Below, piece after piece: positions 16,233 to 16,503 of a DNA stretch of 64,000 nucleotides. The stretch lies in NCBI RefSeq assembly GCF_013315695.1, contig NZ_CP054353.1; one strand, 5' to 3'. The notes under the pieces were generated by a model that made no database searches, had not been told where the DNA came from, and worked only from the letters and a program-made list of their open reading frames with translations. Each line of letters begins with the position of its first letter. Position 1 is the first letter of the stretch. A program made the translations under genes and the position numbers. This DNA comes from Escherichia coli. GTDB taxonomy: Bacteria; Pseudomonadota; Gammaproteobacteria; Enterobacterales; Enterobacteriaceae.

Positions 16233-16243
16233 ATGGACGCTCC
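16233..16243. repeat. IS right-end terminal inverted repeat plus AT core (ATGGACGCTCC on the plus strand)
   Basis: An exact inverted copy lies at 17598-17608, and a third copy at 17531-17540 overlaps the recombinase RBS/start. Confidence 0.7.
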
Positions 16244-16271
16244 CGGAATGCAATGCTTTCTTCAGTTATGT

Positions 16272-16455
16272 AATAAAACGGGTAGGTGCAGCCATATATC
16301 CGGTTTCTGATGGGATTTTTATCCCGAACCATGATGAAATCCGCCAGGCAGGTACCAATCATCCTCTACGGGCTAACTTGCCCTTGTTACCTCTCGGTGT
16401 ATCCTGCCTGCGGTCTTACCTGTTTTGCCATCTTCTGAAGTCACCTGCACCTACC
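16272..16455 (-). ncRNA. Candidate bridge/seek-RNA-like structured ncRNA in the IS 3' non-coding end
   Basis: An 11-bp long-range stem pairs 16445-16455 with 16281-16291 and is followed by UUUUAUU. Nested inside is a roughly 15-bp bulged stem (16399-16413 / 16341-16356) enclosing an internal loop capped by a GGGC/GCCC hairpin, plus a second GGGAT/ATCCC hairpin. The loop segment CGAGAGGTAACA (16385-16396) matches flank CGCGAGGTAACA (16218-16229) at 11/12. Confidence 0.45.
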
Positions 16456-16503
16456 AGGACGTTAACTTTTTTTCAGCACCTCGTCAGATTGACTGACCTT
16501 GTG

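What the first reader, a model, noticed from the sequence alone, without database searches (positions are those of the whole stretch)
16233..16503. IS110-family element carries a long structured 3' non-coding RNA candidate whose internal loop matches the flanking target DNA (bridge/seek-RNA-like guide)
The recombinase gene is preceded by only about 78 nt, but it is followed by 271 nt of non-coding DNA inside the element. On the recombinase strand this region can form an 11-bp long-range stem: GGTAGGTGCAG (16445-16455) pairs with CTGCACCTACC (16281-16291), immediately followed by CGUUUUAUU. Two modules are nested inside this stem. Module (a) is a bulged stem of about 15 bp, CCGCAGGCAGGATAC / GGTACCTGCCTGGCGG (16399-16413 / 16341-16356). 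It encloses an internal loop with single-stranded segments ACCGAGAGGTAACAA and GTAGAGGATGATT on either side of a GGGC-aagtta-GCCC cap. Module (b) is a GGTT/AACC stem with a GGGAT-aaaa-ATCCC hairpin. The 5' loop segment CGAGAGGTAACA is identical at 11/12 positions to the chromosomal flank CGCGAGGTAACA (16218-16229), which lies 3 nt from the AT core. A rough estimate gives about 0.01 chance occurrences of such a match. A weaker 7-nt match, GGGATAA (16319-16325 versus 17613-17619), exists to the other flank, 4 nt from the core; this is about what chance alone would give. In both cases the RNA has the sense of the strand that runs 5'-to-3' into the core. A stem, a guide-bearing internal loop and a cap, sitting in the long non-coding end, is the architecture reported for RNA-guided IS110/IS1111 recombinases. 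I could not confidently assign the donor-end guides.
Basis: partly seen in the sequence, partly recalled or inferred. Interest (0 to 1): 0.85.

Follow-up and report, generated by a model that had tools for sequence, protein, structure and literature searches.

The report
ISEc81 bridge (seek) RNA gene
The long non-coding tail of this E. coli insertion sequence (ISEc81, IS1111 group) very probably encodes the guide RNA that tells its recombinase where to insert and which DNA ends to join, but this kind of RNA has been known since 2024 and was already predicted for this element.

Summary
The stems and the 11/12 loop-flank match are all at the stated coordinates. Within this one element the match is only suggestive: about 2% of shuffles do as well.

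Comparison with 56-62 homologous elements (46-71% protein identity) settles it.
- The fold is conserved with compensatory changes: 26 of 34 pairs, 95% of cells paired against 29-41% when partners are slid.
- The 5' side of the module (a) loop is complementary to each element's own right flank.
- The 3' side copies the left flank plus core.

So this is a two-specificity bridge RNA, or long seekRNA.

Corrections:
- The element ends lie outside the inverted repeats. It spans 16229-17614 and recombines at an AT core, so the guide abuts the crossover.
- The 7-nt GGGATAA match is chance.

The element is ISfinder ISEc81 (99% identical protein). Its non-coding region aligns collinearly with that of ISEc11, whose seekRNA is experimentally proven. 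Durrant et al. 2024 already list ISEc81 with a bridge RNA in its right end. Verdict: real, correctly interpreted, not new.

The parts
16229..17614 (-). ISEc81 copy, 1386 bp. One copy of the AT core is counted, so each boundary is ambiguous by 2 nt: 16229/16231 and 17614/17616.
   Evidence: K-12 empty sites read ...GGTAAC AT CCCTG.... E. coli copies at three distinct repeat loci (five junction contexts) have identical junctions. The protein is 337/341 identical to ISfinder ISEc81.
16504..17529 (-). Recombinase (transposase) gene, 341 aa.
   Evidence: ORF. Pfam DEDD_Tnp_IS110 (E = 3e-15) and Transposase_20 (E = 1e-24). The GLTPKEHSSG motif is read directly from the translation.
17598..17608 (-). 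Left-end subterminal inverted repeat ATGGACGCTCC. It is preceded by the 6-nt left extension AATGAG (17609-17614).
   Evidence: The same repeat and extension pattern recurs in about 60 homologues.
16229..16243 (-). Right-end subterminal inverted repeat GGAGCGTCCAT (16233-16243) plus the 4-nt right extension AUAU (16229-16232). The last two bases of the extension are the AT core.
16281..16455 (-). Bridge RNA / long seekRNA candidate, about 175 nt, delimited by the outer stem 16445-16455 / 16281-16291.
   Evidence: RNAalifold consensus on 56 homologues. Pair counts: 95.1% of cells paired against 29-41% when slid, and 0 of 500 shuffles reach the observed covariation. Window coordinates.
16411..16432 (-). 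5' strand of helix 2 (GAUGG, 16428-16432), which pairs with UCAUC (16333-16337). It is followed by the sequence-conserved linker CAAAACAGGUAAGACCG.
   Evidence: The linker is nearly invariant in the family and also present in ISEc11. A role as a protein-binding platform is inference.
16341..16413 (-). It corresponds to the short seekRNA part of ISEc11.
   Evidence: Every pair of helices 3 and 4, and 3 of the 4 pairs of helix 5, show changes on both sides. Alignment to ISEc11.
16385..16395 (-). Right-target guide GAGAGGUAACA, on the 5' side of the loop. It is complementary to the top strand of core base 2 plus the right flank (window 16219-16229): 9 contiguous pairs, one mismatch, then one more pair.
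   Evidence: Family test: own longest match 7.24 nt against 3.36 nt for other loci, 0 of 2000 permutations reach it, controls null. The mutual-information diagonal links RF2-7 to alignment columns 76-70.
16360..16367 (-). Left-target guide AG(A)GGAUG, on the 3' side of the loop. It has the same sense as the left flank AGGG + core AT + G (window 17614-17620, complement). A16365 is an extra base relative to the family register.
   Evidence: Family test: 5.71 against 3.33, 0 of 2000 permutations. LF-1 to LF-4 and both core bases map to columns 108, 107, 105, 104, 109 and 110 with mutual information of 1.1-1.67 bits. The extra A is also present in the Kluyvera copy.
16334..16338 (-). Candidate left-end donor guide UUCAU, complementary to left-extension bases ATGAG (17609-17613). 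It overlaps the 3' strand of helix 2.
   Evidence: At the two variable positions, Watson-Crick pairing holds in 82 of 108 cells against 60.5 +/- 3.4 when permuted, 0 of 5000 permutations. Column 134 is the top mutual-information column for LE6. The assignment is tentative because these bases also pair within the RNA.
16302..16330 (-). Module (b): helix GGUU/AACC enclosing the hairpin GGGAU-AAAA-AUCCC. This is a structural branch of the multiloop, not a guide.
   Evidence: Compensatory changes in helices 6 and 7. There is no association with flanks.
16293..16301 (-). Right-end donor guide GGAUAUAUG, in the multiloop between module (b) and the outer stem. AUAUAU has the same sense as the last six bases of the right end (CCATATAT) and ends on the AT core.
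   Evidence: Its last 4 nt equal the right extension in 59 of 62 loci, across 11 different right-end tetranucleotides. Mutual information reaches the maximum possible for RE1, RE2 and RE-1.
16249..16254 (-). -35-like hexamer ATTGCA in the right end; the family consensus is TTGGCA. Joining the right end to the left end would create a perfect TATAAT from 16229-16231 plus 17612-17614, 17 nt downstream.
   Evidence: No sigma-70-like promoter lies upstream of the recombinase gene in the integrated copy. Promoter function is inferred from the published ISEc11 junction promoter (PMC11187229).
16052..16228 (.). Left part, in window coordinates, of the chromosomal target repeat. The right part is 17617-17709.
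   Evidence: The repeat of about 270 bp is intact at aqpZ-lysO and yohP-dusC in K-12. An occupied third copy lies at asmA-yegH in strain 33E.

Best explanation
The 275-nt non-coding right end of ISEc81, an IS1111-group member of the IS110 family, encodes on the recombinase strand a bridge RNA (long seekRNA) of about 175 nt.

Proposed architecture:
- An outer stem closes a multiloop with two branches.
- Branch 1 is the target-binding module. Its internal loop carries GAGAGGUAACA on the 5' side, which pairs with the top strand just right of the crossover. It carries AG(A)GGAUG on the 3' side, which pairs with the bottom strand just left of the crossover and includes the AT core.
- Branch 2 is a plain hairpin.
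- UUCAU, just before branch 2, probably pairs with the left-end extension.

Proposed mechanism: bound to the DEDD/Ser recombinase, the RNA aligns the circularised element (right end-AT-left end) with the chromosomal site ACAGGG-AT-GTTACCTC, and recombination occurs at the shared AT. The RNA is probably cut out of the recombinase transcript. That transcript would be driven by a promoter created only when the two ends are joined.

Shown here by computation: the conserved fold, the loop-flank and loop-end relationships, and strict site specificity.
Inferred, not shown: transcription, processing, protein binding and catalysis.
For: - Identity: Pfam DEDD_Tnp_IS110 and Transposase_20. The protein is 99% identical to ISfinder ISEc81.
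- IS1111 layout: 11-bp subterminal inverted repeats, a left end of about 85 nt and a right end of 275 nt, no clear duplication.
- Fold: 34 consensus pairs, 26 with compensatory changes. 95.1% of cells are paired against 29-41% for slid partners. Covariation score 0.427 against 0.159, with 0 of 500 shuffles reaching it.
- Target guides: own-flank matches of 7.24 nt and 5.71 nt against about 3.3 nt for other loci, 0 of 2000 permutations. Wrong-strand and wrong-flank controls were null or far weaker: own means 3.4-3.7 nt, with 45-777 of 2000 permutations reaching them. An unbiased mutual-information scan picks exactly the loop columns.
- Right-end donor guide: identical to the right extension in 59 of 62 loci, across 11 different right-end tetranucleotides.
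- Shared core: the core base covaries with both the target loop (column 110) and the donor segment (column 189).
- Left-end guide: 82 of 108 Watson-Crick against 60.5 +/- 3.4 when permuted.
- Site specificity: all sampled E. coli copies and the Kluyvera copy sit at the same base of the same repeat.
- Homology to a proven case: collinear with the ISEc11 non-coding region, and the guide positions coincide with the published ISEc11 seekRNA matches CAGUAUUUU and GUGAAAAUA.
- Prior prediction: Durrant et al. 2024, Supplementary Table 5, lists ISEc81 with 'Detected Bridge RNA End = RE'.
Against: - There is no expression, binding or activity data for this element.
- No promoter-like site lies upstream of the recombinase gene or the non-coding region in the integrated copy.
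- In ISEc81 itself the left-target guide matches only 4 contiguous nt (GGAU), five (GGAUG) if the flank base after the core is counted, unless A16365 is bulged out, which gives 7 nt.
- The proposed left-end guide is also the 3' strand of a conserved intramolecular helix, GAUGG/YCAUC. Left-end recognition by RNA is therefore not separable from structure using these data.
- All E. coli copies share the same guides and the same target, so there is no within-species test.
- Covariation controls by shuffling ignore relatedness. The flanks, however, lie outside the element, and sequence identity, as opposed to correlation, is not explained by common descent.
- A few homologues do not fit the register (for example L025 and L081).
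Confidence: 0.87

Rival explanations
1. Only the target-binding module (a short seekRNA, about 16341-16413 or 16333-16432) is a functional guide. On this view the donor-like matches are DNA-level features. GGATATAT would be an internal copy of the right end used as a protein site or alternative end, and the recombinase would recognise the ends through the subterminal inverted repeats.
For: - In ISEc11, ISPa11 and ISKpn4 the predominant co-purifying RNA is the short form of 82-96 nt covering the target loop (PMC11187229).
- IS1111 elements have long subterminal repeats that could serve protein recognition.
- The left-end candidate guide is buried in helix 2.
Against: - The right-end segment tracks the right extension base for base in 59 of 62 loci.
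- It shares the core base with the target loop, as expected if both are read by the same RNA-guided active site.
- It lies in a conserved single-stranded multiloop inside the outer stem.
- Durrant et al. report donor-binding nucleotides in a multiloop for many IS1111 orthologues.
- A longer RNA of 154 nt also co-purifies with the ISEc11 transposase.
Confidence: 0.09
2. The region is an ordinary structured 3' untranslated region. It would act as a transcript stabiliser, a terminator or an antisense regulator of the recombinase, and the flank match would be coincidence.
For: - Within this single element the 11/12 match has a look-elsewhere probability of about 0.02.
- A short U-run follows the outer stem.
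- There is no Rfam family hit.
Against: - Family-wide loop-flank tracking gave 0 of 2000 permutations.
- The loops vary while the stems are conserved.
- No terminator-like site is called on this strand after the non-coding region.
- The U-run is not conserved in the family.
- The region is homologous to the experimentally validated ISEc11 seekRNA region.
Confidence: 0.02

Closest known systems
ISEc11 seekRNA (IS1111 family; Siddiquee et al. 2024, PMC11187229)
   Same: - Same location, downstream of the recombinase gene.
- Same landmarks in the same order: GAUGR, then CAAAAGACAGGUAAGACC, stem, 5' guide, GGGC cap, 3' guide, stem, hairpin, CCGGAUAUA, GCUGCA...CCUACCCG.
- Same strand logic: the top-strand match lies 5' of the bottom-strand match.
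- Subterminal inverted repeats, and a promoter formed at the circle junction.
   Different: - The guides and target differ: GTGAAAATACTG for ISEc11 against ACAGGG-AT-GTTACCTC here.
- ISEc81 has an extra base in its left-target guide.
- For ISEc11 the RNA, its binding to the transposase and its reprogramming were shown experimentally. For ISEc81 nothing has been tested.
IS621 bridge RNA (IS110 group; Durrant et al. 2024, PMC11208160; Hiraizumi et al. 2024, PMC11208158)
   Same: - One RNA carries a target-binding and a donor-binding region.
- Each region has two guides that pair with opposite strands on opposite sides of a shared core dinucleotide.
- The partner is a DEDD/Ser recombinase.
   Different: - The IS621 RNA is encoded upstream of the gene, in the left end.
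- The order of the guides in the loop is reversed. In IS621 the 5' side pairs with the bottom strand on the left. Here the 5' side pairs with the top strand on the right.
- The core is CT in IS621 and AT here.
- The donor guides lie in a simple internal loop in IS621. Here they lie in a multiloop, with one strand overlapping a helix.
- The subterminal repeats are long here.
ISPa11 and ISKpn4/ISPst6 (IS1111 family elements that insert into REP or attC hairpins)
   Same: They insert at one fixed position in a repeated palindromic or hairpin-forming sequence, and their seekRNAs come from the 3' non-coding region.
   Different: The target family differs. Here the target is a three-copy repeat of about 270 bp in E. 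coli that weakly resembles the TwoAYGGAY RNA motif.

Membership tests
IS1111 group of the IS110 family | Recombinase with an N-terminal DEDD (RuvC-like) domain and a C-terminal PF02371 domain carrying the GL-P----S/TG motif | tested here: met
   PF01548 (E = 3e-15) and PF02371 (E = 1e-24). GLTPKEHSSG is read in the translation. 99% identical to ISfinder ISEc81.
IS1111 group of the IS110 family | Subterminal inverted repeats of 7-17 bp with short terminal extensions | tested here: met
   ATGGACGCTCC / GGAGCGTCCAT (11 bp), with a 6-nt left and a 4-nt right extension defined against empty sites.
IS1111 group of the IS110 family | Long non-coding region downstream of the gene, so that the right end is longer than the left end | tested here: met
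   Right end 275 nt (16229-16503) against left end 85 nt (17530-17614). The same holds in about 60 homologues.
IS1111 group of the IS110 family | Insertion at one specific sequence in one orientation, without a clear target duplication | tested here: met
   Same base of the same repeat in the E. coli copies sampled at three distinct repeat loci and in Kluyvera. Only the 2-nt AT is shared by both junctions.
Bridge RNA / seekRNA | Conserved secondary structure in the long non-coding end, on the recombinase strand | tested here: met
   26 of 34 pairs have compensatory changes. 95.1% of cells are paired against 29-41% when slid.
Bridge RNA / seekRNA | An internal loop whose two sides match opposite strands of the target on either side of the crossover | tested here: met
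   for the family. In this copy: 9 contiguous pairs, one mismatch, then two more on the right side. On the left side 4 nt contiguous (GGAU), five (GGAUG) counting the flank base after the core, and 7 with one bulged base.
Bridge RNA / seekRNA | A second region matching the element's own ends (the donor) and sharing the core with the target guides | tested here: met
   Right-end guide: 59 of 62 identical. The core base covaries with columns 110 and 189.
Bridge RNA / seekRNA | A guide for the other donor side (the left end) | tested here: inconclusive
   The signal is significant but modest, and the same bases form helix 2.
Bridge RNA / seekRNA | Sequence and structure homology to an experimentally validated member | tested here: met
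   Collinear alignment with the ISEc11 non-coding region, with the guides at the same positions.
Bridge RNA / seekRNA | Hit to the published bridge-RNA covariance models | not testable with these tools
   Rfam 15 gave no match for any family in this region. Durrant et al., Supplementary Table 5, report a bridge RNA detected in the right end of ISEc81.
Bridge RNA / seekRNA | The RNA is made, binds the recombinase, and is required and reprogrammable for transposition | not testable with these tools
   This needs small-RNA sequencing, co-purification and transposition assays.

The most novel reading that the evidence does not exclude
The enterobacterial ISEc81 clade may home specifically on the AYGGAY-type hairpin loops of TwoAYGGAY-like repeat elements. 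Its members are ISEc81, the Kluyvera copy, and the Pectobacterium and Acerihabitans relatives, and they insert right after A(G/U)GGAU in a hairpin loop.

If so, these orphan repeats, whose copy number varies as if they were mobile, would serve as dedicated landing pads for RNA-guided insertion sequences, or would co-evolve with them. A second point in the same spirit: the overlap between the left-end guide and helix 2 could be a conformational switch that gates donor binding.
Probability: 0.1. Interest if true: 0.55.

Novelty: already known. Interest (0 to 1): 0.22.

Why it matters
RNA-guided IS110/IS1111 recombinases are of interest as programmable tools for inserting DNA. This finding shows that the first-stage reader can recognise such a guide RNA from raw sequence. 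It also yields an explicit map of guides, target and donor for one clade: right-target guide, left-target guide, core, right-end donor guide in a multiloop, and a possible left-end guide.

It adds no new principle.
- The mechanism was published in 2024.
- ISEc81 is catalogued in ISfinder.
- Durrant et al. already list it with a bridge RNA in its right end.
- NCBI's annotation pipeline already names the protein 'IS110 family RNA-guided transposase'.

The useful residue is practical. ISEc81 is a natural E. coli element with a single, well-defined chromosomal target present in three copies. That makes it a convenient system for testing IS1111-type donor recognition.

Tried and rejected
- Rfam 15 scan of 15900-17900 at E <= 1: only a chance microRNA hit inside the gene, and no match to any bridge-RNA family.
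The hairpin shows no family-wide relation to the left junction (245 and 345 of 2000 permutations), and its stem varies by compensatory change.
- Outer stem plus U-run as an intrinsic terminator: not called by the scan, and the U-run is not conserved.
- Using E. coli copies to test loop-flank co-variation: uninformative. All copies share one target and an invariant non-coding region, apart from one base at 16453 in one strain.
- Worry that the flanks of this copy are chimeric because of the inversion: harmless. Both parental sites are copies of the same repeat.
- Idea that the target repeat derives from the element: no similarity beyond the 9-nt guide match.
- Plasmid hit H100 (L089) as a reprogrammed relative: it is a decayed 3' fragment with the same target loop and a broken donor segment.
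- Single-sequence minimum-free-energy fold: it recovers the outer stem and modules (a) and (b) but misses helix 2 and adds a non-conserved pairing with downstream sequence. I used the comparative structure instead.
- I built no covariance model. The MAFFT/RNAalifold alignment already gave clear answers.

Full report
**What is there.** The window is E. coli; 16150-17700 is 100% identical to strain MS 21-1. A 341-aa ORF lies on the minus strand at 16504-17529. It carries both IS110-family Pfam domains, DEDD_Tnp_IS110 and Transposase_20. It is 337/341 identical to the ISfinder entry ISEc81, whose sequence is given in the source data of Siddiquee et al. 2024. The element occurs in 179 of 5426 complete E. 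coli genomes, with a median of two copies. NCBI's pipeline already labels the protein 'IS110 family RNA-guided transposase' in recent records.

**Checking the observation.** The 271-nt region folds better than shuffled versions (z = -3.4). GAGGTAACA occurs only twice in 64 kb, once in the flank and once in the loop, against 0.21 expected. I also applied a generous look-elsewhere correction: any 12-mer of the region against 28 nt of either flank on either strand. Under it, 71 of 3000 shuffles reach 11/12. On its own the match is therefore only suggestive.

**True ends.** K-12 carries the uninterrupted target at two places, aqpZ-lysO and yohP-dusC. There it reads ...GGGCGCGAGGTAAC-AT-CCCTGTAAAACGCGCCC....
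- The element is therefore 1386 bp, window 16229-17614 with one AT counted.
- In element orientation it reads: left flank ...ACAGGG[AT] | AATGAG-ATGGACGCTCC ... GGAGCGTCCAT-AT[AT] | GTTACCTCGCGCCC.
- The inverted repeats are subterminal, which is the IS1111 hallmark.
The flank match abuts the core rather than lying 3 nt away. The GGGATAA match straddles element and flank.

**Comparative evidence.** One scan of species-representative genomes returned 80 homologous loci at 46-97% protein identity. About 60 of them show the same layout: [NN]AATGRR-ATGGACGCCCC ... gene ... 250-340 nt ... GGGGCGTCCAT-NTAY.

An alignment of 56 non-coding regions gives an RNAalifold consensus of 34 pairs in 7 helices. 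Of these pairs, 26 show compensatory changes. On that structure 95.1% of cells are paired, against 29-41% when partners are slid by 1-3 columns. The covariation score is 0.427 against 0.159 for shuffles, and 0 of 500 shuffles reach it.

**Guides.**
- *Right-target guide.* The 5' side of the module (a) loop was compared with the reverse complement of each locus's own right flank. The mean longest exact match is 7.24 nt, against 3.36 nt for other loci's flanks.
- *Left-target guide.* For the 3' side against the left flank plus core, in the same sense, the figures are 5.71 nt against 3.33 nt. No permutation out of 2000 reaches either value. The two wrong-strand controls are null; the wrong-flank control gives a far weaker signal (own mean 3.68 nt, 45 of 2000 permutations reach it).
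- *Unbiased scan.* A mutual-information scan of all alignment columns against each flank position picks the same columns. Left-flank positions -1 to -4 and the two core bases map to columns 108, 107, 105, 104, 109 and 110 (window 16363, 16364, 16366, 16367, 16362, 16361). Right-flank positions 2-7 map to columns 76-70.
- *Right-end donor guide.* The same scan shows that the right-end extension maps with maximal information to columns 185-189 (window 16298-16294). The RNA segment GGAU-NNNN equals the right end CCAT-NNNN in 59 of 62 loci, across 11 different right-end tetranucleotides. The three exceptions differ only at the last core base. It lies in the multiloop between module (b) and the outer stem, as Durrant et al. 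describe for many IS1111 orthologues.
- *Shared core.* The second core base covaries with both the target loop and this donor segment, as a shared crossover requires.
- *Possible left-end donor guide.* UUCAU (16334-16338) is complementary to the left extension ATGAG. At the two variable positions it is Watson-Crick in 82 of 108 cells, against 60.5 +/- 3.4 when permuted. The same bases form helix 2, so I mark this guide as tentative.

**This copy in detail.**
- The right-target guide GAGAGGUAACA (16385-16395) pairs with T-GTTACCTC-g-C: 9 contiguous pairs including core base 2, one mismatch, then one more pair.
- The left-target guide reads AG-A-GGAU-G (16360-16367) against AGGG-AT-G. An extra A (16365) relative to the family register leaves 4 contiguous matches against the left flank plus core (GGAU), five (GGAUG) with the base after the core, or 7 if it bulges out.
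- The Kluyvera copy has the same extra base and the same target, so it is a feature of ISEc81 and not an error.

**Site specificity.** The sampled E. coli copies lie at aqpZ-lysO, asmA-yegH, aqpZ-dusC and yohP-lysO. All sit at the identical base and orientation in copies of the same repeat of about 270 bp.

**Link to experiment.** The ISEc11 non-coding region is printed in the supplement of Siddiquee et al.. It aligns collinearly with the ISEc81 region. Shared landmarks are the GAUGR...CAAAAGACAGGUAAGACC leader, the stem, a GGGC cap, CCGGAUAUA and GCUGCA..CCUACCCG. The two experimentally supported ISEc11 target matches (CAGUAUUUU and GUGAAAAUA, for the target GTGAAAATACTG) fall exactly where I place the ISEc81 guides. 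The top-strand match is also 5' of the bottom-strand match, which is the IS1111 order. That order is the reverse of IS621.

**Expression.** No sigma-70-like promoter is found on the minus strand in the integrated copy, and no terminator follows the RNA. Joining the right end to the left end would create TATAAT, 17 nt downstream of ATTGCA; the family consensus is TTGGCA-17-TAYAAT. This matches the junction promoter shown for ISEc11. The RNA is therefore most likely processed from the recombinase transcript of the excised circle. This step is inferred.

**Novelty.** Bridge RNAs and seekRNAs were described in 2024, and IS1111 elements were reported to carry them in the right end. Supplementary Table 5 of Durrant et al. 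lists ISEc81 as group IS1111 with 'Detected Bridge RNA End' = RE. The only papers in the searched library that name ISEc81 are resistance-genomics surveys. The explicit guide map and the target identity are therefore probably unpublished, but they are details within a known scheme. I rate the finding real, correctly interpreted and already known.

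Noticed in passing
window 16052-16228 and 17617-17709; intact copy at L003 3116-3387: The ISEc81 target is a repeat of about 270 bp. It is intact in K-12 at aqpZ-lysO and yohP-dusC, and a third copy at asmA-yegH is occupied by the element in strain 33E. The intact copy gives a sub-threshold Rfam hit to the orphan TwoAYGGAY RNA motif (RF01731: 30.9 bits, gathering score 43, E = 0.006). The element sits in the loop of the second hairpin, right after AGGGAU. 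A Pectobacterium relative (L006) likewise sits right after AUGGAU in a hairpin loop. A 2026 preprint describes TwoAYGGAY elements as expanding like mobile elements and proposes that they act as Csr/Rsm sponges.
   Followed up: partly
window 15288-18708 (aqpZ, the element, dusC); L084 and L085 (yohP, the element, lysO); L087 (aqpZ, the element, lysO): In K-12, aqpZ neighbours lysO, and dusC lies about 1.3 Mb away next to yohP. Here the element joins aqpZ to dusC. Other strains carry the reciprocal yohP-element-lysO junction, and one strain has the un-rearranged aqpZ-element-lysO arrangement. This indicates a chromosomal inversion of about 1.3 Mb between two oppositely oriented ISEc81 copies, or between their target repeats. 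It is present in many of the carrier genomes.
   Followed up: partly
window 16365: The left-target guide of ISEc81 has one extra A compared with its relatives (GUAG-GGAU in L007, GAAG-GGAU in L008), which share the same left-flank sequence. The guide therefore either pairs with a one-base bulge or uses only GGAUG. The Kluyvera copy has the same base.
   Followed up: partly
window 16333-16337 with 16428-16432: The candidate left-end donor guide is also the 3' strand of a conserved 5-bp helix, whose 5' strand (GAUGG) resembles the left extension it would recognise (AATGAG / AATGGG). The two pairings are mutually exclusive. This might act as a switch or might be coincidental.
   Followed up: no
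window 16229-16254 with 17612-17614: Circularisation would create a perfect -10 box (TATAAT) across the junction of right end and left end, 17 nt downstream of a -35-like ATTGCA. The arrangement TTGGCA-17-TAYAAT is conserved across the family.
   Followed up: partly
L089 2501-2849 (plasmid NZ_JBSQBR010000002.1): This is a 350-bp relic, 93% identical, holding only the 3' end of the gene and the non-coding region. It lies next to an IS3 fragment. Its target loop is intact but its right-end donor segment is mutated (GGAUAUCUCG).
   Followed up: yes
window 18770 onwards; L001 6621-9551: Beyond dusC, this strain carries a gentisate-pathway cluster: 3-hydroxybenzoate 6-monooxygenase, maiA, a fumarylacetoacetate hydrolase family gene and gtdA. 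At that position K-12 has yohJ and yohK instead.
   Followed up: no
L008, L062, L070 (right-end extensions): In the three loci where the donor guide and the right extension disagree, they differ only at the last base, which is core position 2. This is what would be expected if that base can be inherited from the target after strand exchange.
   Followed up: no
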